Sequence record: MG976803.1
Length of the DNA stretch: 64,000 nt
Source of the DNA: Escherichia phage myPSH2311
Strand: one strand, 5' to 3'
Shown here: positions 5,297 through 51,419 of the stretch, piece after piece
Position numbering within the stretch: the stretch's first letter is position 1
Layout: each line of letters begins with the position of its first letter
The notes under the pieces: generated by a model
What the model was told of the DNA's origin: nothing
The model's input: the letters and a program-made list of their open reading frames with translations, nothing else
Database searches by the model: none
Made by a program: the position numbers and the translations under genes

Positions 5297-5340
5297 TTGC
5301 CGATTTTCAGGTTGAGAACGTACAGGCTTCTTCTCAGAAG

Positions 5341-7076: not shown

Positions 7077-7117
7077 TCGACAAATTAAATTATTAATAGT
7101 ATAGGAGCTAACATAAC

Positions 7118-7453: not shown

Positions 7454-7462
7454 ACATGCGTA

Positions 7463-8065
7463 TTGCGTCTGAATGACACCCATGCAGCTCGTAAGACTGG
7501 TGCATTCCAGTTCCTGTGTGCTCACGGTGGTCTGGCTGGTGGCGTTGTTGACAAGACCAAGAATGGTCCTGCTGACCCGGACACTGGTGCAGTAACTGTT
7601 AAAGTTGCACAGAATGCTTCTAACCCGACCACTAACATTGGTTTCGACGAAGCTGATATCTTTGATATGACTCTGCAACTGTATACCGCTGGTTCTGAAG
7701 CAGATATCATCATGATTAACCCGGCTCATGCTAAGATCTTTGCTGGTCTGCAAGAAAATACTCAGGGTTCACGTAAGCGTATCTTTGAGAACACCAAGCA
7801 GTTCATCTACGAAGTTAACAGCATCACTGACCCGCTGGGCCAGAGCTACAAAATCATCGTTAACCGTTGGATGCCTACCGATGCAGTTTACTTCTTCCGT
7901 AGCGCTGACTGGACCCAGATGGTTCTACGTGCTCCGAAACGTACTGAACTGGCTAAAGACGGTTCTTACGAGAAGTGGATGATTGAAATGGAAGTTGGTC
8001 TGCGTCACCGCAACCCGTATGCTTCCGGCGTTCTGTTCACTGCTGCGGGAAAGGTGGCGGCGTAA
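7463..8065 (+). CDS. major capsid protein, C-terminal segment
   Basis: 200 aa, TTG start in track, no SD; in frame with 7118-7453; followed by slippery site and Ig-like ORF. Confidence 0.55.
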   Translation: MRLNDTHAARKTGAFQFLCAHGGLAGGVVDKTKNGPADPDTGAVTVKVAQNASNPTTNIGFDEADIFDMTLQLYTAGSEADIIMINPAHAKIFAGLQENTQGSRKRIFENTKQFIYEVNSITDPLGQSYKIIVNRWMPTDAVYFFRSADWTQMVLRAPKRTELAKDGSYEKWMIEMEVGLRHRNPYASGVLFTAAGKVAA

Positions 8066-9454: not shown

Positions 9455-10579
9455 ATGATCGTTTATAACAACCAAGCACCTAAGAATGTTAACAATGTAG
9501 GACAATTTGGAGCTACTGAGGGAACTATTGGTGCTTATAAATCAGCAGCTGAATATGCAGCAGACTCTAAATATTGGGCATTGTTGTCCCAAACTAAATA
9601 CTCCTCAGTAGAGGAGATTTTGGCTGAAGTAGAACGTCTGTATGCTCAAGGTCATCTACTGGAAGAAGACATTAAACAACTCAAGAGTGACTTTGAGTCA
9701 CAAGAACAAGTGCTCTTAGGTTTGATTCAATCCACAGGAACTGCAATTGACAACACCAATGCAGCAACTGAGCTTTCAAAAGAGGCAACTCAAAACGTTC
9801 TAGCACAACTTGACATTATCTCTAACATGACAGTTCAAACAACGCTTCTTCCTCCGGGAAGCCTAGCTACGGGGTCTTATGATAATGCAACAGGTGTCTT
9901 TGCTTTTGGTATTCCAGAAGGTAAACCGGGGCGTGATGGTACTGACGGAACAATCGGTGATATTGGAAGCGTTCCTGTTGGTACCCCTGTTGTTGATGAC
10001 TATGGTTTCTATGTAGATAAAGATGATGGTGGTTTATACCGAGCTGACATGTCAGATATTGCCAACTTGATTCCATCTGTTCGATCTGTTTCAATCAATG
10101 GCGGCGCTGAACAAACAGGTTCAGTGGTTTTTGATTCTGTCTCCACATTCAATGGACGTAAGGGTGCTGTAGTTCCTGCTACTGGAGACTACACAGCTGC
10201 TCAAGTGGGAGCTTTTAGTGTAACTAATAACCTATCCGAAATAACCGACACAAGTGCAGCTATTACAAATATTGGACTCGCTGAGCATGGGATTGGTAGC
10301 CCTACCTTAACCAAAGTGAAGGCTATGGACTGGCAAACATTTAATTTTGTCAATGGAGGTAACTATTCAGTATTAATGTCGAATATTACAAATGCCCCTG
10401 CTGAGATAAATTATCCTGCCAATTATGGGTTATATCTTGAAGTCATTGGCGTAGTTACAGGAGGAGGTGAGGTACGAGTGGTGCCAATTGCATTGGGAAT
10501 CCTCTCAATGGCATATTTTCCGCTTGGCCAATGCGCTTATGCCGTGGCAAATGTGCCACAACTGCTGCATTGTGTGTAG
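9455..10579 (+). CDS. tail fiber protein, N-terminal segment (ends at in-frame TAG)
   Basis: RBS AAGGAG; short collagen-like GKPGRDGTDGTIGDIG; TGDYTAAQVGA fiber-type motif; last 30 codons look non-native. Confidence 0.5.
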   Translation: MIVYNNQAPKNVNNVGQFGATEGTIGAYKSAAEYAADSKYWALLSQTKYSSVEEILAEVERLYAQGHLLEEDIKQLKSDFESQEQVLLGLIQSTGTAIDNTNAATELSKEATQNVLAQLDIISNMTVQTTLLPPGSLATGSYDNATGVFAFGIPEGKPGRDGTDGTIGDIGSVPVGTPVVDDYGFYVDKDDGGLYRADMSDIANLIPSVRSVSINGGAEQTGSVVFDSVSTFNGRKGAVVPATGDYTAAQVGAFSVTNNLSEITDTSAAITNIGLAEHGIGSPTLTKVKAMDWQTFNFVNGGNYSVLMSNITNAPAEINYPANYGLYLEVIGVVTGGGEVRVVPIALGILSMAYFPLGQCAYAVANVPQLLHCV

Positions 10580-10705
10580 CATCGCCAGCTTAGCGCTGCA
10601 TCAATTGTACCTATTACCAAAGGTGGTACAGGAGCTACTTCATCAGAGAATGCTCGACTAGCTCTAGTTGCAGCTAAGAGTGGTGATAACTCTGATATCA
10701 CCTCG

Positions 10706-23824: not shown

Positions 23825-24172
23825 ATGGCTAACATTAAACCGTGGGAAGAAGCTTCCAAAGCTCCTGCGTATCTGAATGCCTCTCCGGAGCAACAAGCTC
23901 AAATGAGAGAACAATATAAGGCAGCAGGTGGCTCTATTCCTGAGGAACAACCAGTAGCACAACCACAACAAGAAGAACGTGGTGCTATAGGTGAGTTTGC
24001 TCAAGGTGTGTCAAATGCTCTTCAATCTGGTGGTGCAAATATTGCAGCTAGTGCTGCTAAAGGTATTGGTGGTTTAGTTGAGATTGGTGAGAATCTAGCT
24101 GGAGCACAAACTAGTTATGGTAAGCGTATCCAAGAGAACTCTCAGAAAGTCAGTGTCATGAGTTGCTGGTGA
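23825..24172 (+). CDS. internal virion protein, N-terminal ORF
   Basis: ATG at 23825 preceded by AAAGGAGA; G/A-rich; ends 8 nt before the next ORF in the +1 frame. Confidence 0.5.
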   Translation: MANIKPWEEASKAPAYLNASPEQQAQMREQYKAAGGSIPEEQPVAQPQQEERGAIGEFAQGVSNALQSGGANIAASAAKGIGGLVEIGENLAGAQTSYGKRIQENSQKVSVMSCW

Positions 24173-24179
24173 TATCGGT

Positions 24180-26972
24180 TTGACAGTTGCTAACCCATTG
24201 GCTGCTGCTGCTATCATCGCAGGTCGTGAGACAGGTCGTGCATATGCAGACCAAACCCCTGAAGAGGGAGAAGATAAGTCTATTCTAGATGCAGCCTTAG
24301 TTGGTGGTGCTAACTATGCGGCTCAGAGAATCCTTCCGGGTGCTGTCGGTACAGCTGAGTCCACACTTGGACGTATTGGTCAGAACGTTGCTAGTAACGC
24401 AGTGGCTGGTGCTAAAGGTGGCGCTCTTGTGGGTGCTGCTGAAGCTCAGAACAAGCATGGAGATGATACAACCTTTGCTAATGTATTAGAGGGTGCTATC
24501 GAAGAAGGTGCTATGGGTGCTGCATTCGGTGGTGCAGTTGGTGGAGTTCATGGTTTGATTAGCCGTCCAGATTCTGCTGTCTTCAAGAATACTCCAGAGT
24601 ATGCGAAGACTGATATTGCTGCTGATGATGAACTAATTCGTAGTGCTAAGAATATTGATGAACTGAAAGAAGCTTACTCTAAAGCTGAAACTGCTAACGC
24701 TGCTTCTGCTCTGAATCTTCTGGATGAGAATGGATTCCGTATTACAGATGCTGTTGCTGTGGATTCTCCTGCTGCTCAGCGTATTCTTAATACTGACCAA
24801 GCTCGTGCTGAGAAAGCTGCTTCTGTTCAGAAAGAACATTCCAACATTCCGGGCCTTAATCCTTTAGCTTCTCCTGCTAAGACTCGTGGTAAAGCATTTG
24901 CTGATAATGAGCACAACCAGAAGCAGGCTGTTGCTATGAAGGATGCAATGGCTGACTACACCAAAGACAACACGAAAGCTCTTACAGATGTTCTAGATAA
25001 CCTAGACCGTGAATTAACTTCTCTCCGAGCTTCTGGTGATTTTACTGGTAGTCCGATTGATATTAAGAATCGTACACAAGCTGACCGTGATTTCATTGAT
25101 GCTTACAAGACTTTCTACAATGAAGCAAATCGATTCAAAGCTCGTGAAGGTGAAGATTTTAATAACTTTGTAGAGAAAGCTACTGAACTACAGAAGATGG
25201 CTGATAATGTTTCTCCAGAGATGAAGAAAGCTATCGGTGGGTTGAAGAAACTGAAAGGTATGCCTGAAGGTTTTAATCCTATTCAAGATGCTTATACTCT
25301 GAACAATACAGCTAAATTCATGAGCAACCAAGATCGTGGTTGGACTTCCTTGACTGATGATGGATTCCGTGAAGCTTCTTCACCTAGTCTGGTAATGAAC
25401 ACTCTTGGTGCTGCTAAGTATGCTCTGAATCGCTTCTCTTCTCAGCGTGCTCGTTCTCAACGTGTTAAGCAACAAGAATCTAACAGTGAAGCTATCCGCT
25501 CTCTTGCTCGTGGTGATTTGGAAGTTGCTCGTGCTAAATCTACTGCTGATGAAGCTCGTGCTAAGATGGAAGAAGAACCAGTTGTTGATGACATTAAATT
25601 TAAGACGCAAAATGACGTAGAAACCGAACCGGTTCGGGAGCCTTCTTCTAGTACTGTGACGGAAGAAAATCTTCCTTCTTCTACTCCTCAAGAGACTCCT
25701 CTTACAGCTCGTGATTTAGTTGCGCAAAGACGCGCTATCCGTCAGGCTGAACAGCGTCGCGCTGAAGAAGAGGCATTGGCTGCTCAAGAAGCTCCGGTCG
25801 AACAGGCTCCACAGGCTGAACCTCTCCCTGCTCGTAACCCTCTAGAGGAGCGTCGTGCAATGGAACAGCAACGTGCTCAAGAAGAGGCCGCACAGGCTCC
25901 AGAACCTACCGTAGAGGAACCAACAGTCAAAGCTGAGCCATTACCTGCCCGTGCTCCTAAAGCTCCTAAGGAAGCTGTACAGGACGTTAAACCGGCAAGT
26001 GGTGTAGAACGTTTAGCTGCTATGTCTAGTGCTGCTCGTCAGGCTACTAAAGATCGTGCAGAACGCTTTGCTCGTTCTCTGTACTCTAAGGCTGCTAAAG
26101 CTAAAGCTACTGCTGAAAACTTCTTGGCTTATAAAGGTGATCCTAAGGAACTGATGCGTCGTATTCGTCAGGAAGATAATGCTATCAACACTGAACGTCA
26201 TGAAGAAATGGCTCGTAACCAGAGTTGCATGTCCGAAGCGGTTATCGAGGAACGTGGTCTGCCAGAAGACATTGCTACTAAGGCATTACGTGCTGAAGAG
26301 AAAGGTTTAGGTGGGAACGTAACTAACTTGGATAGTCTGAAACGTCGTGCTGAAAGGTTGTATCAGAAGCAGCGTGAAGATGAGTTTGATAGACTGTACC
26401 AACAAGCTCTAGAAGAGAATAAAGCTTTCGATAACAAGAATGCTCCTAAGCTGGTTGACCAGAAGAAAGAGCTTCAGTCTGAGATTGATACTTTGATTGA
26501 TGCAGAACCTTTACGTCCTGCTCAGAAAGACGCTATGCGTAAATTGATGAATGACTTTGTAGATGGAAAGTTTAAATCTTCAGAGAAGGCTGGTAGGGAA
26601 GAGGCTTTGGAAGTTGGTCAGATGAAGGATATTTGGGATGGGTTTATTAACACCTATAACAGAGAAGTGAATGCCTTCAACAAAGCTAACAAGAACTCTC
26701 AGTACGAAGCTGCTGCTAAGCATTTACAGGCTCGTGAAGAACGTCTTGCTACACTCAGGAAAAAGGCTCAGGCTCGTTCGGATGCTAAAGCTGCTGTTGA
26801 GAATGAACGTAAAACTCTAGAGGCTATTGCAGCTCAGAAGAGTGAGATTGAGAAGATGATGGAAGGTTTACCTAAACCTGTTCGTGAGGCTCAGGAATCT
26901 CGTACACTGAAACAGTTGGCTGCTCACCACGATAAGAACTCTCCAGTTCCTCCAGAGAAGTTCCGTAGTTAA
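24180..26972 (+). CDS. large internal virion protein
   Basis: 930 aa; TTG start without SD; G/A-rich N-terminus, long charged coiled-coil segments, internal EPLPAR repeats. Confidence 0.55.
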   Translation: MTVANPLAAAAIIAGRETGRAYADQTPEEGEDKSILDAALVGGANYAAQRILPGAVGTAESTLGRIGQNVASNAVAGAKGGALVGAAEAQNKHGDDTTFANVLEGAIEEGAMGAAFGGAVGGVHGLISRPDSAVFKNTPEYAKTDIAADDELIRSAKNIDELKEAYSKAETANAASALNLLDENGFRITDAVAVDSPAAQRILNTDQARAEKAASVQKEHSNIPGLNPLASPAKTRGKAFADNEHNQKQAVAMKDAMADYTKDNTKALTDVLDNLDRELTSLRASGDFTGSPIDIKNRTQADRDFIDAYKTFYNEANRFKAREGEDFNNFVEKATELQKMADNVSPEMKKAIGGLKKLKGMPEGFNPIQDAYTLNNTAKFMSNQDRGWTSLTDDGFREASSPSLVMNTLGAAKYALNRFSSQRARSQRVKQQESNSEAIRSLARGDLEVARAKSTADEARAKMEEEPVVDDIKFKTQNDVETEPVREPSSSTVTEENLPSSTPQETPLTARDLVAQRRAIRQAEQRRAEEEALAAQEAPVEQAPQAEPLPARNPLEERRAMEQQRAQEEAAQAPEPTVEEPTVKAEPLPARAPKAPKEAVQDVKPASGVERLAAMSSAARQATKDRAERFARSLYSKAAKAKATAENFLAYKGDPKELMRRIRQEDNAINTERHEEMARNQSCMSEAVIEERGLPEDIATKALRAEEKGLGGNVTNLDSLKRRAERLYQKQREDEFDRLYQQALEENKAFDNKNAPKLVDQKKELQSEIDTLIDAEPLRPAQKDAMRKLMNDFVDGKFKSSEKAGREEALEVGQMKDIWDGFINTYNREVNAFNKANKNSQYEAAAKHLQAREERLATLRKKAQARSDAKAAVENERKTLEAIAAQKSEIEKMMEGLPKPVREAQESRTLKQLAAHHDKNSPVPPEKFRS

Positions 26973-27139
26973 TTGCAAGCCTTTTAAGGCGCGCTGAAGC
27001 GGCTTTAAATGGCGCTAAATCGTGCAAAATGCCCATTGGGAGCCTGAATGGCGCGTGTTTTGCATAAGCCGGCGTTTGCCCAGTTCGTAAGGCTGGTATT
27101 TTGCTGTAAAGCGTGATTCATCGCCGCCTGATGCGTACT

Positions 27140-27982
27140 ATGGAAGATAAGGGCATATCTAGAGAGGATGCTGAAGCATTTGCTGGTTCCTATATGGATA
27201 ACCGTTATGCACTTCTTGAGAAGCCTATGACTCCTACTGAACATCAGAATGCTCGTTCTCGTATCGAAGCTGATGTTGAGAAGTTTGCTAAGAAGTACGA
27301 ATCAATGACTCCTATCGAGAAAGAGATTGTTAAGGTTACTGGAGATACTGAAGGTAAGCTTGATAACTTGGATGCGGATACTAGGAAGGCTATTGAGGAG
27401 GCTCAGAAGGTTGACTCTGATATTAAGAAACTGCAAGAGGAAGAGTTGGAGATGGAGAAGATTCGTTCTGCTCTGCCTGATGATGAAAGATCTCAAGCAA
27501 ATTCTGATATCTTGGAAAGCATTAAACAACAGGAAGAGGTCTTTGCTGATAAAGTAGAGAAAGCTTTCTTGAGTGGGAAGAGCTTGGATGAGTTGGCTAG
27601 TGTGGCTGAAGTTTTAGACAGGGTTCATGGTGCAGATAAGGCTGGTAACAACCGTCGCTTTGTACGTGCATTGCAGACTGCTGCTGAAAACAAGAAGAAG
27701 TATGGTGATAATCCAGTAGCTTGGTTTAGTGCTGATGATTACTCTGCCATTGCTAAACTTGGTGCTTCTTCCGCAGGTGGTAACAAATCCAGAGCACTGG
27801 AGAAGATCTTTGGTTCTACAGCTGAACAGGCTAAGAGTAAGTTGCTTGGTAGGGATGATGTAGCGAAGATGAGACGTGTGATTGAAGAGAACCCTGATAT
27901 CAAGATTCCTTCTTACAAGACAGGTCAGGTTTCCAGTCCCAGTCAATGGGCATGCATGGTCCAAAATCGGCCCCTAGGGTAA
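27140..27982 (+). CDS. internal virion protein, truncated by insert
   Basis: track ORF 27113-27982; native-looking reading frame runs to 27922, last 20 codons derive from the filler. Confidence 0.45.
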   Translation: MEDKGISREDAEAFAGSYMDNRYALLEKPMTPTEHQNARSRIEADVEKFAKKYESMTPIEKEIVKVTGDTEGKLDNLDADTRKAIEEAQKVDSDIKKLQEEELEMEKIRSALPDDERSQANSDILESIKQQEEVFADKVEKAFLSGKSLDELASVAEVLDRVHGADKAGNNRRFVRALQTAAENKKKYGDNPVAWFSADDYSAIAKLGASSAGGNKSRALEKIFGSTAEQAKSKLLGRDDVAKMRRVIEENPDIKIPSYKTGQVSSPSQWACMVQNRPLG

Positions 27983-28022
27983 CGTCGGAATCCGGTACGC
28001 TTATGCCCCTAAGTGCATTTTT
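27923..28022. other. 100-bp GC-rich filler between perfect 81-bp direct repeats
   Basis: 27842-27922 is identical to 28023-28103; the intervening 100 bp is unrelated to flanks. Confidence 0.8.
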
Positions 28023-28247
28023 TTGCTTGGTAGGGATGATGTAGCGAAGATGAGACGTGTGATTGAAGAGAACCCTGATATCAAGATTCCTTCTTACAAG
28101 ACAACAAATCGTACTGAGTACTTGCAGTTCTTGGAGAAGTTTAATGACGAAGGGAAGCCTAAGATTAAACGTGGCTCATTGTCAGAGAAGCTTGAACGCA
28201 GTAAGCGTCAATCGAGACTCCGTGTAAGAGTTCGACCTAAGGAGTGA
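28023..28247 (+). CDS. internal virion protein, C-terminal remainder
   Basis: 74 aa; its first 27 codons repeat the duplicated segment of the upstream ORF. Confidence 0.45.
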   Translation: MLGRDDVAKMRRVIEENPDIKIPSYKTTNRTEYLQFLEKFNDEGKPKIKRGSLSEKLERSKRQSRLRVRVRPKE

Positions 28248-28524
28248 TAAAAGAAAAGCCCAGGGCTCGTTCAAGTCAAATGATGGGCTAGTCAATTAAG
28301 CCCCTTGGGCATAGCTGGCAATGCTAGTCACAACTTCTTCATTCATATACCCTCCTAGATTGTGTTTATAAAATTAGTAAGTTTCTCTTCACTTTCATCA
28401 AAAGCTTTTCCAGCTGCTTCCATCTCCCAAGTATCGGCATTGTCAATAAAGCTCTGAGCTTCTAATAGGTCGTGGATTAAGTCGAAGAGTTTATTTTTAT
28501 CTGCTTGTGTGATCATGTCAGTTC

Positions 28525-28791
28525 CTAGATTAAATCGTAATACTGAATAATGTCAGAGAGTTTGAACTCTCGAATCTCATCTTTCTCTACATCTATCGCT
28601 GTCATAATCCAACAAGGTTTGCCACCGTTATGAAAACGGGAGCTAGCAACGGAGGTTCGGAGTGGAATAACGGACCGGTCAGCAACCTCGCCTCTCCAAT
28701 TGCGATAGCGAAAGCGAAGCACTTGTTGCGTAGATTTTTGATCATCACTCATTTCCTTTTTTGAATTGTTTTCTTGCATCATTATTGGCAA
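28525..28791 (-). CDS. hypothetical protein
   Basis: 88 aa ORF, last gene of minus-strand module. Confidence 0.4.
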   Translation of the reverse strand: MPIMMQENNSKKEMSDDQKSTQQVLRFRYRNWRGEVADRSVIPLRTSVASSRFHNGGKPCWIMTAIDVEKDEIREFKLSDIIQYYDLI

Positions 28792-29078
28792 TGCTTAACG
28801 TAACTAGCTTGGGCTTCATGGTCAAGAGGAACTATAGGCTCTATGTGGTCAATAGCCATATCCTTTACAGGGTGGTCAGAACCACACATGGCACACTTAA
28901 AGTGCATTGCCAGTCTACCTGTCTTTGGATTAATCTTCTGCTCTGTCTTGGCGTCTGCTAGTGCATCGAACATGGGCTTCCACTTTCTAGTCAGAGAACG
29001 AATCCCTGACTTGATAAAAGAATTGTAACGAGCTTCAGTCCACATTCCAGAGCATCTAGTCTTCTCAGCCTTCGCCAT
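28782..29078 (-). CDS. HNH nuclease-domain protein
   Basis: 98 aa; HFKCAMCGSDHPVKDMAIDHIEPI matches HNH C..C/His motif. Confidence 0.5.
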   Translation of the reverse strand: MAKAEKTRCSGMWTEARYNSFIKSGIRSLTRKWKPMFDALADAKTEQKINPKTGRLAMHFKCAMCGSDHPVKDMAIDHIEPIVPLDHEAQASYVKHCQ

Positions 29079-29256: not shown

Positions 29257-29451
29257 TATAATATCCTTATTACCAAGATTTATCTAACCATGTCCAGTCG
29301 AACAGGTCTTCCGGAGTCTGACCAACAAAGAGCAGCCGAGCATTCTCAAGCATCTTCTCTTCATCTTCAGTATCGAACTTCTTATAATATTCCATTCGTA
29401 CTATATGATACATGGTCCAAGCCTGCATTGAACCGTAAAGCCCTTAGGCTG

Positions 29452-30078
29452 TTAGTTACCACCCCACATAACCTCTTTACGTTCCCCACATCCGGGGATG
29501 TTATCCGTACCATCTCCAATCAACATTTGATAGAAGAAGTTTTGCCATGAAACTAAATCAGATACGTAATGAGGAGGGACTTCTTTCTGTCTTTCTCCAC
29601 AAGCCCAGCGATAATGCCATCCGGGAGTTATCAACAAATCCTTGTCTCTAGTACAGATGATAGTATTCTTATCCCTACGTTGCCTTTCAGCTAGTGCATC
29701 ATCAGCCTCTCTCCCAAAGACCTCAATGTATTCGTACTTGGCTTTAATGTAATCACCAACGTTTTGCCAGTGAAAAGGTCTTTCTCCGGGAGGTCTGTTT
29801 GCCTTGTAGTCTTGTTGCTTAGCAACATCGAAACGGAAGTTACCGCCTTCGCTGAAGTAGAATACAACCTTACTACAACCCGAGCGAGCTATAATTGTAT
29901 CAATCTTGTACTGAAGTCGTTCAATCATGAAATTGTAATCAACTGGAACACGTCCTGTGTCAAGGAAGGGATGCTCCTGAGTAAGAGCACCCACTTCATA
30001 CCGAAGAACGTCAGCGTCCACTATAGCAACTTCAGGGAGCTTAACTTCTTCCATAAATATCATCCTGAGCTTGAGCAA
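29452..30078 (-). CDS. 5-3 exonuclease / flap endonuclease (PIN-like), possibly C-terminally truncated
   Basis: FDVAKQQDYKANR, GREADD, DKDLLI, LIGDGTDNIPG motifs; the helix-hairpin-helix part appears missing. Confidence 0.65.
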   Translation of the reverse strand: MLKLRMIFMEEVKLPEVAIVDADVLRYEVGALTQEHPFLDTGRVPVDYNFMIERLQYKIDTIIARSGCSKVVFYFSEGGNFRFDVAKQQDYKANRPPGERPFHWQNVGDYIKAKYEYIEVFGREADDALAERQRRDKNTIICTRDKDLLITPGWHYRWACGERQKEVPPHYVSDLVSWQNFFYQMLIGDGTDNIPGCGERKEVMWGGN

Positions 30079-30940: not shown

Positions 30941-32182
<1,242 letters not shown>

Positions 32183-34426: not shown

Positions 34427-34723
34427 TTAGATAGTTAATTTGTGATCTTCCTCCGCTCTGTTTCTAACAGAGACGGCTTCTTCTAGGGTTGAGAAAGTTC
34501 CTAGGTATTTAGTTTTCGTTGAAAGGCTTAAGGCTTTTGGCATAGCTGCAAAATGGGCCCGTTAATATGACCCGTTAAAGGCTTTTTTGGCATGCGTAAA
34601 AGGCTTGCTTAAATTTCCTGCCTCATCACCCCGCCTGCATTTTGTTCCGTTGCGAATTCTCCAGAACACTTTCCCAGATGATAAATCACAAACAAAGAAC
34701 TCATCCAGAAGATCTTCTATCAT
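34427..34723 (-). pseudogene. HNH-AP2 homing endonuclease remnant with internal filler
   Basis: 5-prime 26 codons MIEDLLDEFFVCDLSSGKVFWR and 3-prime end KYLGTFSTLEEAVSVRNRAEED flank a GC-rich filler at about 34515-34645. Confidence 0.5.
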
Positions 34724-41750: not shown

Positions 41751-42095
41751 TTAACTCTCCAAAGTTTTCTTCAGAGCTGCCCATGAGATTGGGTAGAGCT
41801 TAGCCATCTCTTCATCTACGGATTTAGCAAACACTCGAACTTCATATTGAGCGTGAGATGAGAGTCGCTGACGACACAACTCAAACCAGCCATACAAAGA
41901 ACCAGTCCACACCCACTCAGTGATCATCCCCTGAGGAAGAACAAATCGAGCTTGCTCTGGTGCAATAAATTCAATCAACTTGTCATATGTTGCTAGAGAA
42001 GCTTCATATGCATCGTTAATCAACATTAATGCTTCAGCTCGTTCTCCGTCGATGAGTTGAATCCCTGAACCTGCATGGTTTGCCCAAAATGGCAT
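41751..42095 (-). CDS. thyX: flavin-dependent thymidylate synthase ThyX, C-terminal half
   Basis: ARFVLPQG..RLSSHAQYEVR matches ThyX C-terminal conserved block. Confidence 0.6.
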   Translation of the reverse strand: MPFWANHAGSGIQLIDGERAEALMLINDAYEASLATYDKLIEFIAPEQARFVLPQGMITEWVWTGSLYGWFELCRQRLSSHAQYEVRVFAKSVDEEMAKLYPISWAALKKTLES

Positions 42096-42163
42096 TGGCG
42101 CTATAGCATGGGGCTTTTTAAATGGCCCCGCGGGTTAATGCTAATGGCGGATTTTGGCCACGG

Positions 42164-42469
42164 TTATGCATGCGTAGGGAGTTCAACTGCTCCATCTTTA
42201 TACCGCCGGGACATTTCGTTCCACGAGAATCCAACCTGATGCTTGCCCAGCTGTCTCGCAATTGCGATAGGTGCTTTGCATCGGAAACTGACTTGCGGGT
42301 GTCGGAATGGAGTACAGTGTTTTTCCCGTGCAAGGAAGTTGATAAGTTTTGTGTCTCTCTCATTTAAGTCACCTTCTCGAACAACACCGAAAGATACTCT
42401 AGCTGCATTGACTACAGATTTGTCACTACCCATTGCTTCAATCAGTGTTGCTTGTAGTTGTTCGTTCAA
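42164..42469 (-). CDS. thyX: flavin-dependent thymidylate synthase ThyX, N-terminal half
   Basis: AARVSF, HCTPFRH and KH..FSWNEMSRRY resemble the ThyX signature; separated from the C-terminal half by a filler. Confidence 0.6.
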   Translation of the reverse strand: MNEQLQATLIEAMGSDKSVVNAARVSFGVVREGDLNERDTKLINFLAREKHCTPFRHPQVSFRCKAPIAIARQLGKHQVGFSWNEMSRRYKDGAVELPTHA

Positions 42470-42908
42470 TTAAAAGTTCCTTTTTTCGATTCATGTAAAC
42501 TTGATGAGCTTCTTCGGCAGTTCCATACATACCTAGATGTATATCTACTTTATCAATACAAATAACAGCCCTATATCTAATAGTCCCTGATTTATATTTG
42601 ACAACCTTAACACCTTGAAGCCCTGTTTCCTTGTTTGATACCCTAGCCCCGAACTGGTTGTGGCAGTTTGTCGAGGTGTCCACCAATCTCAAGTTCTGTA
42701 TTGAGTTGTTCTTCTTATTTCTATCGATATGGTCTATCTGAGAAGAAGGCCACTCTCCATAGTAAAAGAACCATGCCACTTTATGAGCTTTGTGTACTTT
42801 CCCTTTAAACCGCAGGGTTATGTACTTACTTCGAGTTCCTCCTAATTTCTTACCTTTTCGAAAGAACTCTCCAGTCTCAGGGATATACTCTAAATCATCG
42901 ATTAACAT
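42438..42908 (-). CDS. HNH homing endonuclease with AP2 domain
   Basis: QIDHIDRNKKNNSIQNLRLVD HNH motif, N-terminal YIPETGEFF, C-terminal AP2-like LGMYGTAEEAHQVY. Confidence 0.8.
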   Translation of the reverse strand: MLIDDLEYIPETGEFFRKGKKLGGTRSKYITLRFKGKVHKAHKVAWFFYYGEWPSSQIDHIDRNKKNNSIQNLRLVDTSTNCHNQFGARVSNKETGLQGVKVVKYKSGTIRYRAVICIDKVDIHLGMYGTAEEAHQVYMNRKKELLIERTTTSNTD

Positions 42909-43173
42909 TCAGAGCTGTATCTAAAAATGCTTTCAGGTTTGCTTCAGTCTGCATACCAGAGAGGCTGTAGTGTGCACCACTGTTACGGTCAGGCACAACG
43001 AAAGCAGGGATACTTCGTACACCATACTTAACAGCTTGTTCACGACCATCACCTTCAAGGATGTTAATCTCTTCCACTTCTACATCAAACTCCTTAACAA
43101 CCTTCTCAAAGGTAGGAGCCATTGCTTTACATGGAGCACACTGATCACTATAAAACTTAATTACTTTAGACAT
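42895..43173 (-). CDS. thioredoxin-like protein
   Basis: 92 aa; active-site-like CAPC in thioredoxin fold context. Confidence 0.55.
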   Translation of the reverse strand: MSKVIKFYSDQCAPCKAMAPTFEKVVKEFDVEVEEINILEGDGREQAVKYGVRSIPAFVVPDRNSGAHYSLSGMQTEANLKAFLDTALNVNR

Positions 43174-43181
43174 GTAAATCC

Positions 43182-43361
43182 TTATGCAGTCAGGAGGTGA
43201 AGCAGGAACGGGATAACAACAGCTACGATAACCATGATAGTTGATGCTGTTTGAATCTCACCTTTCTTATCAGGAGTTTCTTCAATAAGCTTACCAGAAG
43301 CCCAATAAATACCACCACCAATAAAGATAGCCCAAATACCCCATACGATTGCTGATAACAT
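43182..43361 (-). CDS. small membrane protein (two predicted TM helices)
   Basis: 59 aa ORF not in track (MLSAIVWGIWAIFIGGGIYW...); found by manual reverse translation. Confidence 0.35.
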   Translation of the reverse strand: MLSAIVWGIWAIFIGGGIYWASGKLIEETPDKKGEIQTASTIMVIVAVVIPFLLHLLTA

Positions 43362-43422
43362 ATATCTATATCCTTATAAATAAGTTCGCCCCACCTCGGG
43401 TTAGGAGACAGGGCGGAGGTTT

Positions 43423-44034
43423 TTAGTAAGACACGTCACCACTTGAATGGGACATGTTGCTCTTGACGAAGTAGCAATACTTGCCAAGACCTTCATTAAT
43501 TTCTTGAAGCATACTCTGATCGACAGGGTAGGATGCTAAATCGCCATCAAACTCATCCATCTTCTCAATAATACACATCAAGGTCATGCACATATCAGAG
43601 AGCATACCGTCCATGTCTAGATCAGCATTACCCTCTGAGAACCAGGCATGGGAGAGGTAGTTAGCCGCTGTAGCATCCACCTTAACGCAGTGGTATCGCA
43701 TACGCTCAGCAATACGATCTCCTACCTGTCGTGCGTAATCTTCCAGCTCGTCAAACATACCATGAACACCCTGAAATCCTGCACCAGAGACATTCCAGTG
43801 GTAGTTTTTAGCTTTGATATGCAAGAGTTCCATGTTAGCTTGTAAGCAGCTCAGGATGTGTTCTAGGCTGTTTGCACTAATCATGCCTTGCATTGTTTCA
43901 AGGCGAGAGATTGAAAGCTCAGACCGGTCTAACATACTATAACTGTCACGACCAATCTCAGGTAAATCAAAAACATTCTTATGCATTTGGGTTTTCTCCA
44001 TCAAGTTCAACTGAGTTAGCAACATTACGTGCAA
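43423..44034 (-). CDS. hypothetical protein
   Basis: 203 aa ORF. Confidence 0.45.
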   Translation of the reverse strand: MHVMLLTQLNLMEKTQMHKNVFDLPEIGRDSYSMLDRSELSISRLETMQGMISANSLEHILSCLQANMELLHIKAKNYHWNVSGAGFQGVHGMFDELEDYARQVGDRIAERMRYHCVKVDATAANYLSHAWFSEGNADLDMDGMLSDMCMTLMCIIEKMDEFDGDLASYPVDQSMLQEINEGLGKYCYFVKSNMSHSSGDVSY

Positions 44035-44237
44035 TATTATCCATTACCTGCTGGGTAATTACGATGCAGTTTAGGCATGGTAATGCGTTTAGGCGTCTTG
44101 GGGAGGTGCCCCCAGTTGCAAGCTGATGCTGCGGGTAAATTGGCGCCATGGGAAACGCGTTAATGCGTGCCTGATGTTATCTTTTCTCATGTGTTGCTCA
44201 AGATCCCAAACAACATGAATAGCCCACATCTTTTTCA

Positions 44238-44847: not shown

Positions 44848-45381
44848 TTACACACCCTTAGATGCAACTACACCTTCAGAGTTATTATAACGACCCTTCA
44901 CTGCATAGGAGTGTTCCCCTGCATGAGAGTGCTCAAACATGACCATCTGACCAACACGCATACCAGCACGAACTCGTAAGCTATGATGCTTGGTTACGTT
45001 ATGGAATTCAAATGTCAGCTTACTACTATTAAATCCTGCATCTGCCCAACCGGCGTGAAGGTGGTTCAAACCACAACGAGCCATAGACGAACGCAGAACA
45101 AACAGACTTGAGATGTTATCTGGAAGATTAAACTCCTCCATAGAGTGAGCCAAGAAGAACTGACCCGGAGTGATAACCAAACCCTCTTCAGGAATCTTTA
45201 CTTCCTTCCACTGAAGATTCTCTTTCGCATCAATATCAACGATGCCATCAGCCTGTTCTTCAACAAGGATAGTATCGCCAATACGAATATCCACACTAGC
45301 AGCGTTAACATACTTATGCTCCGCATCCAGATAGCCATTGTCAATTACATCATGCAGTTCAACACTTCCTAGTAAACTCAT
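44848..45381 (-). CDS. dCTP deaminase / dUTPase-family protein
   Basis: 177 aa; VLRSSMARCGL and GWADAGF motifs; RBS AAGGAG. Confidence 0.6.
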   Translation of the reverse strand: MSLLGSVELHDVIDNGYLDAEHKYVNAASVDIRIGDTILVEEQADGIVDIDAKENLQWKEVKIPEEGLVITPGQFFLAHSMEEFNLPDNISSLFVLRSSMARCGLNHLHAGWADAGFNSSKLTFEFHNVTKHHSLRVRAGMRVGQMVMFEHSHAGEHSYAVKGRYNNSEGVVASKGV

Positions 45382-45498
45382 TCTTGCTCCTTAGTTATTT
45401 GTTTCCATTTAAGCGTGCATATTTTGGCTAATTTTTGGCGTAAAAGTTTTCGCCCAGTGCCTGATTGAACCGGGTCGTAATTATTGCCCGGGTAGTGT

Positions 45499-45591
45499 TT
45501 AAAATGGCGAGGAATTAACAGCTGAGTGTGGTGCATCAATAACACCATCATCAATTAATTTATGTAACTCTGGACTTCCTAGTAAACTCAT
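45499..45591 (-). pseudogene. diverged duplicate of the dCTP deaminase 5-prime end
   Basis: encodes MSLLGSPELHKLIDDGVIDA then runs into filler; compare MSLLGSVELHDVIDNGYLDA of the intact gene. Confidence 0.55.
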
Positions 45592-45600
45592 TCTTATTCC

Positions 45601-45978
45601 TTAGTTATTTGTTTCCATGTCAAAAGAGATTCCACGACCCGCTTCATCGGCAAACCGAACTGTACGGGTTTGAGGTTCTAATACTTCAGGGTTGTTAGCA
45701 ATAAAGCGATCAGCGAGACTATCTCCCAAATCTTGTTCCATACCTTCATCAGTCCAGATAACACGAGAAGGGGCGTTGATATCACCAACAGCGAAACCCT
45801 GACCAGAGAACTGACGTGCGCTAACAGTTAAGCCGTTTGGTCGACCACGAGAGGGTCTAGCCATCCATCGCTCCATAGAATCACTTGTAATACCAAGAGC
45901 TTCTTCAAAAGATGTTCTACGAGTAGGGCTTTCTCTTCGTGACTCTTGTGCTCGACGCATTGCAGGGGCTACAAACAC
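45601..45978 (-). CDS. hypothetical protein
   Basis: 125 aa; N-terminal codons may derive from the upstream filler. Confidence 0.4.
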   Translation of the reverse strand: MFVAPAMRRAQESRRESPTRRTSFEEALGITSDSMERWMARPSRGRPNGLTVSARQFSGQGFAVGDINAPSRVIWTDEGMEQDLGDSLADRFIANNPEVLEPQTRTVRFADEAGRGISFDMETNN

Positions 45979-46034
45979 CCCTTCAATTGCAAATTGGCGC
46001 CCAATTTGGCAATGATTTGCCCCGTTTGTTAAGC

Positions 46035-46949
46035 CTATGCAAATGTGCGCTTTGGCGATTGGGCCAAATTGGCCTGAAGACTAGACATAATCTGAATCTC
46101 TTCATAAGGGATTCCAAAGAATCGACTCATGTCTCGGTTAACACAATATAGAGCACTTGTTGTATCTTCAATAAGAGAAACCTGACCTAATCCATTGACT
46201 AGATGACTAACTGGCTGAGGTGTGGGAAGATATCGAGTTTGGGCCATGTATTGATGCGCAACTGCTGGAGAGGAAAATCTCAACACTTGTGAGTTAGGCC
46301 ACTTCTTGTGAACATACCTGATTTCACGACTAGAGACAACCACTGGACAAGGGGAAGTCATAGCCAAATATCCGTGAGAAGTCATGAATAAGTTGTCAAG
46401 AGTCATCGCACCACGGCACATCATAGGAAAATTATCCAATACCTCTTCAATAGAAGTAGGATAATTAAACATGAATTGGATACGAACCCCATTCCACTGA
46501 AACTCAATAATATCAGTGAATGTTAATTGAGAACCCCCAGCATAGGATTCGTTTGTAGCTTCAGCAAGAAGTGATGCATATTCAATATCTTGTGACTCTA
46601 GCCATTCCTTCACATTACTTTCAATCTCCCGTCCAAGCTCTTGCCAACGATCAGTTGGGATGAAAGTGTTTTGAGTTCTTGGTGTTTGTCCTCTGACAAT
46701 AAAGATATCAATGTCATGTGGAGCTATGTTATTAAGGACAGCATCACGAACAGCCCCACCAGTAATGATGGGACAGATACCATCTGGAATCAAGTTGTTG
46801 TTAATCAACTGTTCAATGAAGTGACGACCAACAGTGATATCAGGTTGTTGAGCAACCTTATCTTCAATTTGGTTAATCGGGATAACAATCATTTTACATT
46901 TTCCAATATAATGAAGGTGGGTCGTAAGGGTCAAATCCCGTGAGTTCAC
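46035..46949 (-). CDS. nucleotidyltransferase (Pol beta superfamily, CCA-adding/poly(A) polymerase-like head)
   Basis: [15 protein letters not shown] motif. Confidence 0.5.
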
Positions 46950-48785: not shown

Positions 48786-48905
48786 ACCAAAATTGCGTGA
48801 CGTTGGCTAATTGCTGACGTGGAATGGCCCTGGCAATTGGGATGCCCCGTGTTAGCTGCGATTTGGCGCGTTATTGGCCCCGTGTTTGCAAGTAATGCGC
48901 GGGCT

Positions 48906-49124
48906 TTATGCCGTTAATGCTGGGTTTATGCGTGCATATTGCTGTGCCAATGCGTAATGGGTAGTGCCCTTTTCGAACACTTCGTAATTCCCACAACGGT
49001 TACAACTCCCCCACTCCTCACCAGTCTCTTCGTTACGGAAGAGAATCATGTGGTTGTGGGTTTTATCACGACCATGAGAGATACATTCCTTACAACCTGT
49101 GTCTCCCAAAATGATCTTTGACAT
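48906..49124 (-). CDS. zinc-ribbon protein, probable detached primase zinc-binding domain
   Basis: CKEC..CNRC pairs; separated from the TOPRIM ORF by a GC-rich filler. Confidence 0.45.
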   Translation of the reverse strand: MSKIILGDTGCKECISHGRDKTHNHMILFRNEETGEEWGSCNRCGNYEVFEKGTTHYALAQQYARINPALTA

Positions 49125-49302
49125 GCTCTTCCTCCTTGGAATCCTTGAGCTTAGTAGAACGAACGAATTTCATCCCACACTTGTTCCTGTTCTTTCCTAT
49201 AAAAAGAAAGTTGGGTCTTGAACATCTCCACTGATGATTCAAAGTTTTTGGTTTGTGCAGCTTCAACGAAACGTTCATGTCGGTTGATTTTGCACCGTAG
49301 CA

Positions 49303-49515
49303 TTAAATACTTGGCTTCAAGTCTCCGAAGAGCCATGTGGCAATTTTATCTTGTTCTTCGTCGATATGATAAATCCAAGCGATAACAGTTTCACCTGAGT
49401 CCATCTTAACAGCAATCTGAGTACGCTGATAGAAGCTGTCTTCAGGGCTACGTTTGTTGTAACCTTCCAGACGGTCATACGGACCTTCCAGACCTGCTTT
49501 GTCAGTAGCAAACAC
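49303..49515 (-). CDS. AIG2/gamma-glutamyl-cyclotransferase-like protein, C-terminal part
   Basis: continues the 49627-49926 ORF once the filler and 110-bp duplication are removed. Confidence 0.45.
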   Translation of the reverse strand: MFATDKAGLEGPYDRLEGYNKRSPEDSFYQRTQIAVKMDSGETVIAWIYHIDEEQDKIATWLFGDLKPSI

Positions 49516-49606
49516 TTCTACACGAACAGGCTTGTTGTTATTGCTGTGTGCGAGAGAGATGCTCGGGAAGTAGGAACCACCGTAACGGAACAGATCAAAG
49601 TTGTCT

Positions 49607-49706
49607 AATGGGCCGTTTTATGCGGTTTAAAGGCCTTGACCAGTGCATTTGCCCGTTAAATGGCGTGGGGATTTCCCAGTGCGGGTGGCCAGTAAACGTG
49701 TTTTGT
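49607..49706. other. 100-bp GC-rich filler between 110-bp direct repeats
   Basis: 49497-49606 matches 49707-49816; intervening 100 bp unrelated. Confidence 0.8.
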
Positions 49707-49926
49707 CTTTGTCAGTAGCAAACACTTCTACACGAACAGGCTTGTTGTTATTGCTGTGTGCGAGAGAGATGCTCGGGAAGTAGGAACCACCGTAACGGAA
49801 CAGATCAAAGTTGTCTTCAGTCCAACCTTCACCAATTGACTTAGCACCAGCTCGGTCATTAACTAAATAGTTAGCTTGACCACGACGAAGAGAACCATAA
49901 GTTGCTACGTAAATTACTTCTGACAT
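49627..49926 (-). CDS. AIG2/gamma-glutamyl-cyclotransferase-like protein, N-terminal part
   Basis: N-terminal VATYGSLRRGQAN matches the YGSL/YGTL motif of the GGCT/AIG2 fold. Confidence 0.5.
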   Translation of the reverse strand: MSEVIYVATYGSLRRGQANYLVNDRAGAKSIGEGWTEDNFDLFRYGGSYFPSISLAHSNNNKPVRVEVFATDKDKTRLLATRTGKSPRHLTGKCTGQGL

Positions 49927-50137
49927 TATCTATACCTTTCCAGTCTTTCATGATGTTTTCAATGTAAGCACACTGCTGATCAGTGGCTCCTGTTACAAAC
50001 ACTTCTAACCCCAACTGCTCACAGAAGGGATTAAGAATCAATATTCTGGTTTGCCCATACGAGTGATGCTCTCGGTAGATAACACACCCAGCATCCCATA
50101 CAGAATCAATGGCTTTACTCAATCTTTCATGTTTCAT
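49871..50137 (-). CDS. hypothetical protein
   Basis: 88 aa ORF between the triplicated array and the GGCT-like gene. Confidence 0.4.
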   Translation of the reverse strand: MKHERLSKAIDSVWDAGCVIYREHHSYGQTRILILNPFCEQLGLEVFVTGATDQQCAYIENIMKDWKGIDNVRSNLRSNLWFSSSWSS

Positions 50138-50190
50138 AAAACCTCCAGCTTATCCGAACTAGCCTCCTCTTTCGAAGAGGCTAAAGCAGA

Positions 50191-50376
50191 TTACTCTGTA
50201 ATAAAGATTTTGATTACACCACAGATTGCTGCACTCTCAAATACTGCAACAGCTTCACTCCCCTGAAAGAAGGCCACTTTGCCGTCAGAGAAGTTAAACA
50301 TGTCAGCATCTAGGTCCATAGCTCGCATATCACCAGCGTCGTTAGTATCTTTAAACAGAACTTTATACTTATTCAC
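50191..50376 (-). CDS. small acidic protein C, copy 3
   Basis: 61 aa MNKYKVLFKDTND..., ends in Glu; identical to copy 2. Confidence 0.5.
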   Translation of the reverse strand: MNKYKVLFKDTNDAGDMRAMDLDADMFNFSDGKVAFFQGSEAVAVFESAAICGVIKIFITE

Positions 50377-50621
50377 AGATAGGTCACTCCTTTGTCTTGT
50401 TGTGCTTCAGAGATGATACGTTCTACACATTCCATAGAATACTTATCACCACGTTTCAGGAAAGTCACAATTGCAGAGAATTGATTACCAATCATTCGCT
50501 GATTAGTAATACCCCACTCCTCACACAACTTACGCAACTCTTTACGAGAGCCTACAATCAGAGGCTCTTTTTGTTCCATCATTCCATTTTGTACTAGATC
50601 TTCCAATGAAAACATATCCAT
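50373..50621 (-). CDS. small protein B, copy 3
   Basis: 82 aa MDMFSLEDLVQNG...; ATGA overlap with gene C. Confidence 0.5.
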   Translation of the reverse strand: MDMFSLEDLVQNGMMEQKEPLIVGSRKELRKLCEEWGITNQRMIGNQFSAIVTFLKRGDKYSMECVERIISEAQQDKGVTYL

Positions 50622-50627
50622 ATATCC

Positions 50628-51419
50628 TTAGTAGTTTACAACAGTGCCATCGTTCAGGGTAAGGCTATTAATCTGCAACACACGACCAAGCTGACGATCA
50701 CTAATTGGTGCGTTCCATCCAGAGCGGTAGAAGTTACGACCACAGAAGAACAAGATCACATTACTTGCTACAGTCGAACCGTTTTCAGGATGCTTGATGT
50801 TAGCGATATAATAACCACGACGCAGATTACGACGGGTTACAGGGTTGATCTCTAACCCTTGCTCTTCAACTTGCATTGTTTCAGGAACAGGTTCCGAAGA
50901 TTCTTCAGCAACTGGCTCGGAGCTTTCCACTGACAGTGCGTAATCCTCATCACCTGCTGGTGAAAATGTTTCTTCCACTTCTTCAACAGGAAGTTCGTAT
51001 GCAACACGATAGTCAGGCTCAACACCAGAGAAGCTCTTAACAAACTCAACAATATTGTGAGTATAGGTTTCCAGAGTTGTTCCAGTCAGTCCCGGAGCTG
51101 TGTTAACTTCCAGAACCCAAGCGTTAGTATTTTTACTAATCAGGTCAACAGCACCAAAGTTCAAACCCAGAGCAGATACAGCTTTGTGAGCTTGAATCAA
51201 AACCTGATCAGGAGGCGCATCTTGGAAGTTTGAGGAATAAACCCAACCAGTGTGATGATTTCGAACGTCTTCACGATAGGAAGGATCTTCACGGTAACCA
51301 TTACGACGAATCTTCTTCTGAACGTAAGTGATAACACCTTCGAATACATGAACACGCCATTCACGATTGGTGAACGATAAGGGAAAGGTCCTTGGCCATA
51401 GCGTGGCGTATGCATGCAT
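50628..51419 (-). pseudogene. ATP-grasp ligase 3-prime half, truncated copy
   Basis: starts within filler and joins ATP-grasp at REWRVHVFEG; retains EVNTAPG motif; lacks N-terminal ATP-binding half. Confidence 0.55.

What the first reader, a model, noticed from the sequence alone, without database searches (positions are those of the whole stretch)
49497..49816. 110-bp direct repeat flanking a 100-bp filler splits the GGCT-like gene
49497-49606 matches 49707-49816. Removing the filler and one repeat restores a 135-aa AIG2/GGCT-like ORF. Same architecture as the 27.9-kb event.
Basis: seen in the sequence. Interest (0 to 1): 0.55.

Follow-up and report, generated by a model that had tools for sequence, protein, structure and literature searches.

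The report
Assembly-join artefact in phage GGCT gene
The 110-bp repeat around a 100-bp filler is really in the sequence, but it is a non-biological join with made-up spacer bases in a badly assembled E. coli phage genome, not a mutation or a genetic element.

Summary
49497-49606 and 49707-49816 are identical 110-mers separated by exactly 100 nt, and they split a GGACT/AIG2-like gene on the minus strand. The biology does not hold.

The window is a Kuravirus (phiEco32/SU10-like) genome. It shares 100 %-identical blocks of up to 13.5 kb with GenBank MG983840.1 (Escherichia phage myPSH1131), a fragmentary, chimeric "complete genome". That record, identical in the arms and for about 150 nt and 120 nt on either side, has one copy of the 110 nt and no filler. 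So do the 33 related phage records that span the region.

The filler is one of more than 20 junk segments of 14-169 nt. At least five are exactly 100 nt. They sit wherever the window departs from its relatives. They share a G+T-rich, strand-asymmetric vocabulary and match nothing in any collection searched. They have no ORF, no RNA structure and no terminal repeats. They also break the portal, major capsid, primase/helicase and a 1473-aa virion protein, so the molecule as written cannot be a living phage.

Best reading: two sequence blocks overlapping by 110 nt were abutted with a fixed 100-nt spacer, as in reference-guided scaffolding, and the spacer letters were invented. A fully synthetic or generated origin is the main rival. 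Either way it is not a real feature, and interest is low.

The parts
49497..49606 (.). Arm A of the 110-nt exact direct repeat. It is GGCT-gene coding sequence, read on the minus strand.
   Evidence: 100 % identity. It corresponds to Bas91 49582-49691 and MG983840.1 51469-51578, which are single-copy there.
49607..49706 (.). Filler of exactly 100 nt: GC 0.51, G+T 0.63. It has no homolog, no structure and no ORF, and carries stops in the gene's frame.
   Evidence: no match in any collection; composition like the other fillers, z = 4.6.
49707..49816 (.). Arm B of the 110-nt exact direct repeat.
49627..49926 (-). N-terminal fragment of the GGACT/AIG2-like gene (99-aa ORF). It reads 73 family residues and then runs into the filler.
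   Evidence: Pfam PF06094 at E = 1.3e-5. The exact product is absent from the public gene collection.
49303..49515 (-). C-terminal fragment of the same gene (70-aa ORF). Its last 14 residues are aberrant.
49334..49347 (.). Junk of 14 nt replacing 61 nt of the relatives. It rewrites the GGCT C-terminus and the start of the next gene.
   Evidence: alignment to Bas91; MG983840.1 has yet another, chimeric, sequence here.
48792..48960 (.). Filler of 169 nt replacing 280 nt of the primase/helicase gene, which is split into 446 + 72 aa.
   Evidence: composition z = 6.1.
27842..28103 (.). Sister event: 81-nt exact repeat (27842-27922 / 28023-28103) around a 100-nt filler (27923-28022). It frameshifts the 1473-aa virion-protein gene.
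45323..45618 (.). Third event of the same architecture. The 86-nt arms are only 79 % identical (two alleles), around a filler of exactly 100 nt (45409-45508).
50092..54623 (.). Three stacked allelic copies of a ~1.4-kb cassette, each followed by a ~100-nt filler (51367-51460, 52764-52859, 54527-54623).

Best explanation
This is a non-biological join. Two blocks of sequence (contigs) from a poorly assembled Kuravirus genome, the myPSH1131 assembly, both end in the same 110 nt of the GGCT gene. Instead of being merged, they were placed one after the other with a fixed 100-nt spacer. Reference-guided contig-ordering tools do this when neighbouring contigs overlap or the gap size is unknown.

In this window the spacer is not a run of N. 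It is invented, pseudo-random bases, as at more than 20 other joins.

Shown: the repeat, the fixed spacer length, its absence from all relatives, and the common artificial composition of the fillers. Inferred: that the spacer stands for a scaffolding gap, and who or what wrote the letters.

Nothing 'works' here. Read literally, the gene is simply broken by an in-frame 210-nt insert that carries two stop codons.
For: 1. The arms are 100 % identical and the filler is exactly 100 nt. Exact 100-nt fillers also occur at 27923-28022, 42079-42178, 44072-44171 and 45409-45508. Fillers of about 94-97 nt occur at 51367, 52764 and 54527.

2. MG983840.1 shares 100 %-identical blocks of up to 13.5 kb with the window. 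Across this site it has one copy and no filler, and it matches the window exactly in the arms and for about 150 nt and 120 nt on either side. All 33 phage records that span the region give the same 1238-nt collapsed span.

3. In leave-one-out composition tests, every one of 12 fillers resembles the other fillers rather than phage DNA (z = 2.7-6.1; 0-15 of about 2450 control windows do as well).

4. The fillers are G+T-rich on the + strand whatever the gene orientation. Their vocabulary is one-stranded: TGCGT 13 vs ACGCA 0, ATGCG 13 vs CGCAT 0, GCGTG 11 vs CACGC 0. Adjacent identical bases make up 0.33 of positions against 0.25 elsewhere in the window.

5. The filler cores match nothing in 50,697 phage records, 5,426 E. 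coli genomes, or the IMG/VR, JGI metagenome and GTDB genome contigs. No public contig has the layout arm end, ~100 nt, arm start, whereas the natural junction is found.

6. There is no Rfam match and no structure (z = -0.3 to +1.0). The fillers have no terminal inverted repeats, are not templated from the window, and are unrelated to each other.

7. Fillers also break the portal (576 + 134 aa), major head protein (111 + 200 aa), primase/helicase (446 + 72 aa) and the 1473-aa virion protein. The sequence therefore cannot be a replicating phage.

8. The tandem copies next door are distinct natural alleles: their differences are biased to third codon positions, copy 2 is 99.9 % ShigP1-like and copy 3 is 99.8 % ES17-like. 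That is what stacking strain-variant contigs against a reference produces.

9. The myPSH1131 paper states that CLC scaffolds were ordered with CONTIGuator (PMC6200275). CONTIGuator and ABACAS fill gaps between contigs with Ns (PMC3133546; PMC2712343).
Against: The spacer is letters, not Ns, so a further unexplained step must have overwritten them.

The deposited record MG983840.1 does not have this particular join, so the window is not simply that record.

Many shorter fillers (14-36 nt) replace 67-96 nt of good sequence that the record retains. That fits sized scaffold gaps only loosely.

Filler lengths do not equal the gap lengths measured on SU10.

That ABACAS/CONTIGuator use exactly 100 N for overlapping contigs is my recollection of their manuals, not something found in the papers read.
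Confidence: 0.55

Rival explanations
1. The whole window is synthetic. Either a generative sequence model produced it, or a simulation stitched Kuravirus sequence together and wrote junk at each switch point. Resuming a little upstream gives a duplication and resuming downstream gives a deletion. The repeat plus filler would then be a generation or simulation artefact. This is still not a real feature.
For: The filler vocabulary is one-stranded, always in the written 5'->3' direction. It has doubled-letter and ATGC/GCGT/TTAA/GGCC motifs, including ATGCATGCATGCATGC at about 51425, that look machine- or hand-made.

The source genome changes at fillers: blocks 100 % identical to MG983840.1 alternate with blocks 99 % identical to Bas91.

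Fillers replace good sequence that the public record retains.

Nothing from the fillers, nor the ORF running into this one, is in any public collection.
Against: Verbatim blocks of 13.5 kb with one mismatch are hard for a generative model.

The window reproduces the stacked cassette copies of the real myPSH1131 assembly.

Simply editing MG983840.1 cannot supply the natural sequence the window has and the record lacks (1-2373, 5777-7475, 27116-28261, 42296-44071).

The repeated exact length of 100 nt points to a fixed rule rather than free generation.
Confidence: 0.35
2. It is a real mutation in a real, defective phage molecule. A replication template switch or break repair duplicated 110 nt and added 100 nt of untemplated or foreign filler, inactivating a dispensable GGCT gene.
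For: The GGCT gene is an accessory ('moron') gene in Kuravirus annotation, so losing it could be tolerated. Duplications with filler DNA are known at repaired breaks in other systems (my own knowledge).
Against: The same architecture with exactly 100 nt recurs in essential genes.

More than 20 junk segments break the portal, capsid and primase genes.

The filler has no source in host, phage or metagenome data and is not templated locally.

The same phage's public record lacks the insertion.
Confidence: 0.04
3. It is the insertion of a small mobile or selfish element (miniature transposon, intron, homing element) with a target-site duplication. Alternatively it is a translational-bypass or repeat-spacer-repeat (CRISPR-like) cassette.
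For: Only the superficial layout of a direct repeat flanking an insert.
Against: Target duplications of 110 and 81 nt are far longer than those known for transposons (my own knowledge).

The two fillers are unrelated and lack terminal inverted repeats.

There is no Rfam family and no structure, and no ORF.

The feature is absent from every related phage record that spans the site and from all contig collections.

The arms are ordinary coding sequence and differ between the events.
Confidence: 0.01

Closest known systems
Unmerged overlapping contig ends joined by a fixed-length gap in a reference-ordered pseudomolecule (ABACAS / CONTIGuator-type scaffolding)
   Same: The flanks are exactly duplicated. 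The spacer has a constant length of 100, independent of the true gap. The pattern recurs at many joins, and allelic contigs are stacked in tandem. The feature is absent from independent genomes. The parent phage's paper reports CONTIGuator ordering of CLC scaffolds.
   Different: The spacer is written in A/C/G/T with a peculiar artificial composition instead of N. The deposited record does not show this join.
GenBank MG983840.1, Escherichia phage myPSH1131 (Kuravirus-like; Ganges river, India)
   Same: It shares 100 %-identical blocks of up to 13.5 kb with the window and has the same stacked ATP-grasp cassette copies. It also carries aberrant, chimeric sequence at two of the same sites (49334-49347 and the primase filler).
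   Different: It has a single copy of the 110 nt and no filler. Its junction segments are different, often natural or chimeric phage sequence. It lacks several natural stretches that the window has.
Kuravirus gamma-glutamyl cyclotransferase / YtfP-like gene (Bas91_0071, SU10_078; Pfam PF06094 GGACT)
   Same: The collapsed ORF is colinear over residues 1-123 with one substitution against Bas91, and it passes the Pfam gathering score.
   Different: As written, the gene is interrupted after residue 73 and its last 14 residues are replaced.
Transposon insertion with target-site duplication
   Same: A direct repeat flanks an insert.
   Different: The duplications are 81-110 nt. There are no terminal inverted repeats and no transposase. 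The inserts are unrelated to each other and have no other copies anywhere.

Membership tests
Scaffolding join: overlapping contig ends plus fixed spacer | The two flanks of the spacer are the same genomic sequence (exact overlap). | tested here: met
   The 110-nt arms are 100 % identical. They map to one single-copy stretch in Bas91, SU10 and MG983840.1.
Scaffolding join: overlapping contig ends plus fixed spacer | The spacer has a fixed conventional length, independent of the true gap, and recurs at other joins. | tested here: met
   Exactly 100 nt at 27923, 42079, 44072, 45409 and 49607, and 94-97 nt at three more. The true gaps on SU10 range from -1503 to +4717 nt.
Scaffolding join: overlapping contig ends plus fixed spacer | The spacer is written as a run of N. 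| tested here: not met
   The spacer is A/C/G/T with an artificial, one-stranded composition. An extra overwriting step has to be assumed.
Scaffolding join: overlapping contig ends plus fixed spacer | The join is absent from independent assemblies of the same or related genomes. | tested here: met
Scaffolding join: overlapping contig ends plus fixed spacer | No sequencing read spans the join. | not testable with these tools
   Raw reads of the phage are not available here.
Transposable element with target-site duplication | Terminal inverted repeats, a short target-site duplication, and related copies elsewhere. | tested here: not met
   Ends match at 4-6 of 15 positions. The duplications are 81 and 110 nt. 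The fillers are unrelated (local score 12 vs shuffle mean 8.7, max 15). No copies exist in any collection.
Self-splicing intron or other structured RNA insert | A match to a known RNA family, or a fold more stable than shuffled sequence. | tested here: not met
   No Rfam hit in 49200-50100 apart from a chance E = 0.17 hit outside the filler. Folding z-scores are -0.3 to +1.0.
Programmed translational bypass (T4 gene 60 type) | A conserved coding gap with a take-off stem-loop, retained in relatives. | tested here: not met
   The gap is absent from all relatives and there is no significant structure. The sister event is 181 nt, not a multiple of three.
GGACT / AIG2-like gamma-glutamyl cyclotransferase (Pfam PF06094), for the interrupted gene only | Passes the Pfam gathering score. 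| tested here: met
   Collapsed ORF: 55.7 bits against a cut-off of 22.8, E = 9e-15.

The most novel reading that the evidence does not exclude
The duplication plus filler is a real lesion in a real, defective Kuravirus molecule: a template-switch or break-repair event that duplicated 110 nt and added 100 nt of untemplated DNA. Two or three such events in one genome would then point to an unknown filler-adding repair activity acting on phage DNA.
Probability: 0.03. Interest if true: 0.4.

Novelty: not a real feature. Interest (0 to 1): 0.05.

Why it matters
It matters only as quality control. The window is a corrupted rendition of an already poor public phage assembly (myPSH1131). Any repeat-plus-filler, split gene or tandem duplication in it, including the 27.9-kb event and the triplicated cassette, should not be read as biology. 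It also flags MG983840.1 as a chimeric, strain-mixed record that should not be used as a reference or as a founding genome for taxonomy without re-sequencing.

Tried and rejected
- **Filler homology.** I searched for homologs in phages, E. coli genomes, and viral, metagenome and genome contigs. Only the natural edges of two segments matched.
- **Same architecture elsewhere.** I searched the public contigs for the arm end, ~100 nt, arm start layout. There were no hits, while the positive control for the natural junction was found.
- **RNA element.** Rfam and folding of both fillers on both strands gave nothing.
- **Mobile element.** There are no terminal inverted repeats, no similarity between the fillers and no local template.
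- **Sized gaps against the paper's reference.** I tried to test whether filler lengths equal the gaps on the reference genome named in the myPSH1131 paper. KJ101592 turned out to be a T4-like Enterobacter phage, so the test was impossible. Against SU10 the lengths do not match the gaps.
- **Public origin of the interrupted ORF.** The ORF that runs into the filler is not on record. The truncated primase ORF is on record only because an unrelated natural contig encodes the same 446 residues, and that contig has no filler.
- **Markov scan.** An order-4 Markov outlier scan alone was not specific, because natural outliers also appear. The leave-one-out filler model was much cleaner.
- **Uninformative call.** A whole-window count of TGGCG added nothing.

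Full report
**Observation**

49497-49606 and 49707-49816 are identical 110-mers. Their start-to-start spacing is 210, which leaves a filler of exactly 100 nt at 49607-49706. The bases just outside the arms differ, so the limits are sharp.

A second event has the same layout: an 81-nt exact repeat at 27842-27922 / 28023-28103 around a 100-nt filler at 27923-28022.

On the minus strand the repeat plus filler interrupts a gene that starts at 49926. As written, the gene reads 73 family residues, runs into the filler and stops at 49627. The rest of the gene is a separate 70-aa ORF at 49303-49515.

The 210-nt insertion is in frame, but the filler has two stops in that frame. Removing the filler and one arm gives a 137-aa ORF, not 135 aa. 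This ORF matches Pfam PF06094 (GGACT/AIG2-like) at E = 9e-15.

**What the window is**

The region matches 96 phage records, all Escherichia or Shigella phages of the Kuravirus (phiEco32/SU10) group. Identity reaches 98.9 %. In 33 of them a single place covers at least 80 % of the query. Every listed hit collapses the 1401-nt query onto the same 1238-nt span, with the gene annotated as gamma-glutamyl cyclotransferase or YtfP-like. None has the duplication or the filler.

The closest record is GenBank MG983840.1, Escherichia phage myPSH1131. It shares colinear blocks of up to 13,552 nt with the window at 99.99-100 % identity.

That record is itself a poor assembly. It has only 97 CDS, fragmentary genes, and duplicated exonuclease, ATP-binding and ATP-grasp genes.

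At the site of the finding the record is identical to the window in the arms and for about 150 nt and 120 nt on either side, but it has one copy of the 110 nt and no filler.

**The filler is one of many**

A comparison with phage Bas91 (PQ850614.1) and with MG983840.1 shows that the window departs from its relatives at more than 20 short segments of 14-169 nt.

- Exactly 100 nt: 27923-28022, 42079-42178, 44072-44171, 45409-45508 and 49607-49706.
- 94-97 nt: 51367-51460, 52764-52859 and 54527-54623.

These lengths hold whether the true gap on SU10 is -1503, -110, -71, +38, +452 or +4717 nt.

The event at 45.4 kb again has flanking repeats. There the arms are two alleles, 86 nt long and 79 % identical. 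MG983840.1 carries a different 100-nt block in the same place.

**The fillers are not phage DNA**

- **Base composition.** They are G 29 %, T 29 %, A 21 %, C 20 % on the + strand. The rest of the window is A 29 %, T 29 %, G 21 %, C 21 %. All 15 fillers examined have G+T above 0.5, whatever strand the local gene is on.
- **One-stranded vocabulary.** TGCGT occurs 13 times against 0 for ACGCA. ATGCG is 13 against 0 for CGCAT. GCGTG is 11 against 0 for CACGC.
- **Doubled letters.** Adjacent identical bases make up 0.33 of positions, against 0.25 in the rest of the window.
- **Leave-one-out test.** Each of 12 fillers resembles the other fillers rather than phage DNA. The z-scores are 2.7-6.1, and only 0-15 of about 2450 control windows do as well. 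The few high-scoring 'controls' turned out to be further fillers at 10481-10600, 34501-34650 and 45946-46090.
- **No homologs.** The filler cores match nothing in 50,697 phage records, 5,426 E. coli genomes, IMG/VR, JGI metagenome contigs or GTDB genome contigs.
- **No element-like features.** The two repeat-flanked fillers are unrelated to each other, are not copied from elsewhere in the window and have no terminal inverted repeats. They have no Rfam match and fold no better than shuffled sequence.

**The molecule as written cannot be a phage**

Fillers split several essential genes:

| Gene | Intact length in Bas91 | Fragments in the window |
|---|---|---|
| Portal | 747 aa | 576 + 134 aa |
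| Major head protein | 352 aa | 111 + 200 aa |
| Primase/helicase | 596 aa | 446 + 72 aa |
| Virion protein | 1473 aa | 130 + 930 + 289 aa and a remainder |

One filler stands in for 4.7 kb of genes.

Next to the finding, a ~1.4-kb cassette is present three times, at 50092-54526. The copies differ mainly at third codon positions. Each is nearly identical to a different natural phage: copy 2 is 99.9 % ShigP1-like and copy 3 is 99.8 % ES17-like. They are therefore stacked alleles of one locus, not an evolved duplication. MG983840.1 has the same stacking.

**Mechanism**

The pattern is what a reference-guided contig orderer produces from a strain-mixed, fragmented assembly:

- exact overlaps at block ends;
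- a constant spacer regardless of the true gap;
- allelic blocks stacked in tandem;
- a change of best-matching genome at the spacers.

The myPSH1131 paper says CLC scaffolds were ordered with CONTIGuator2 (PMC6200275). CONTIGuator, like ABACAS, fills gaps between contigs with Ns (PMC3133546; PMC2712343). That these tools use 100 N for overlapping contigs is my recollection, not something I verified.

Several things this account does not explain:

- why the spacers are letters rather than Ns;
- why the deposited record lacks this particular join;
- why shorter fillers replace good sequence that the record retains.

For that reason I keep a strong rival: the window may have been generated or simulated, with junk written at each switch point. 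Against that rival stand the 13.5-kb verbatim blocks and the stacked cassette copies shared with the real assembly. Both readings agree on the point that matters: the repeat plus filler is not a property of a phage genome.

**Biological rivals**

A real template-switch or repair lesion is very unlikely. The identical 100-nt architecture recurs in essential genes, and the filler has no source anywhere. The same phage's public record also lacks it.

A mobile element, intron, bypass element or repeat-spacer-repeat unit fails every defining test applied. It is also absent from every related phage record that spans the site and from all contig collections.

**Dead ends**

- The reference accession given in the paper (KJ101592) is a T4-like Enterobacter phage. 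Gap lengths could not be checked against the reference actually used.
- The exact-product look-up of the interrupted ORF found nothing.
- The look-up of the truncated primase ORF found only an unrelated natural contig without filler.

**Verdict**

The interpretation as a genomic event is not supported. I put about 0.9 on the feature being non-biological: 0.55 for a scaffolding-type join with an overwritten spacer and 0.35 for a synthetic or generated sequence. I put about 0.05 on any real biological origin. Novelty: not a real feature. Interest: 0.05.

Noticed in passing
window 50092-54623: A ~1.4-kb cassette (GGCT 5' end, two small ORFs, truncated ATP-grasp/RimK-like gene) is present three times in tandem, separated by ~100-nt fillers. 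The copies are different natural alleles: their differences are biased to third codon positions, copy 2 is 99.9 % ShigP1-like and copy 3 is 99.8 % ES17-like. MG983840.1 has the same stacking. This looks like strain-variant contigs stacked by reference ordering, not a biological amplification.
   Followed up: yes
window 27842-28103: Sister event: an 81-nt exact repeat around a filler of exactly 100 nt. The 181-nt insert frameshifts the gene for the 1473-aa virion protein (Bas91_0020 homolog). A further 140-nt filler at 26976-27115 lies in the same gene.
   Followed up: yes
window 45323-45618: Third event of the same layout, but the 86-nt arms are only 79 % identical (two alleles). The filler at 45409-45508 is exactly 100 nt. 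MG983840.1 has a different 100-nt block, a copy of sequence from elsewhere in the genome, at the same position.
   Followed up: partly
window 48792-48960: A 169-nt filler replaces 280 nt inside the primase/helicase gene, splitting it into 446 + 72 aa. At the same place MG983840.1 has a diverged copy of the GGCT 5' region instead, a chimeric join.
   Followed up: partly
window 49334-49347: A 14-nt junk segment replaces 61 nt of the relatives. It changes the last 14 residues of the GGCT protein and creates a new start for the next gene (Bas91_0070 homolog). MG983840.1 has a different chimeric sequence there.
   Followed up: yes
window 5296-5306, 7368-7466, 54527-54623: Fillers break the portal gene (576 + 134 aa) and the major head protein gene (111 + 200 aa). 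One filler stands in for about 4.7 kb that in relatives encodes the aminotransferase, amidoligase and neighbouring genes.
   Followed up: partly
GenBank MG983840.1 (loci L005-L007) and PMC6200275: The public myPSH1131 record is a chimeric, strain-mixed assembly with 97 CDS, duplicated gene fragments and stacked allelic cassettes. The reference accession named in its paper (KJ101592) is a T4-like Enterobacter phage, not a Kuravirus. The record has been proposed as the founding member of a new genus (PMC9965538).
   Followed up: partly
window 24148-24161, 26223-26247, 28784-28811, 29420-29455, 31115-31140: Short junk segments of 14-36 nt replace 67-96 nt of good coding sequence that MG983840.1 and Bas91 retain. 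The regular size of the lost pieces (67, 70, 96, 70 and 68 nt) is unexplained.
   Followed up: no
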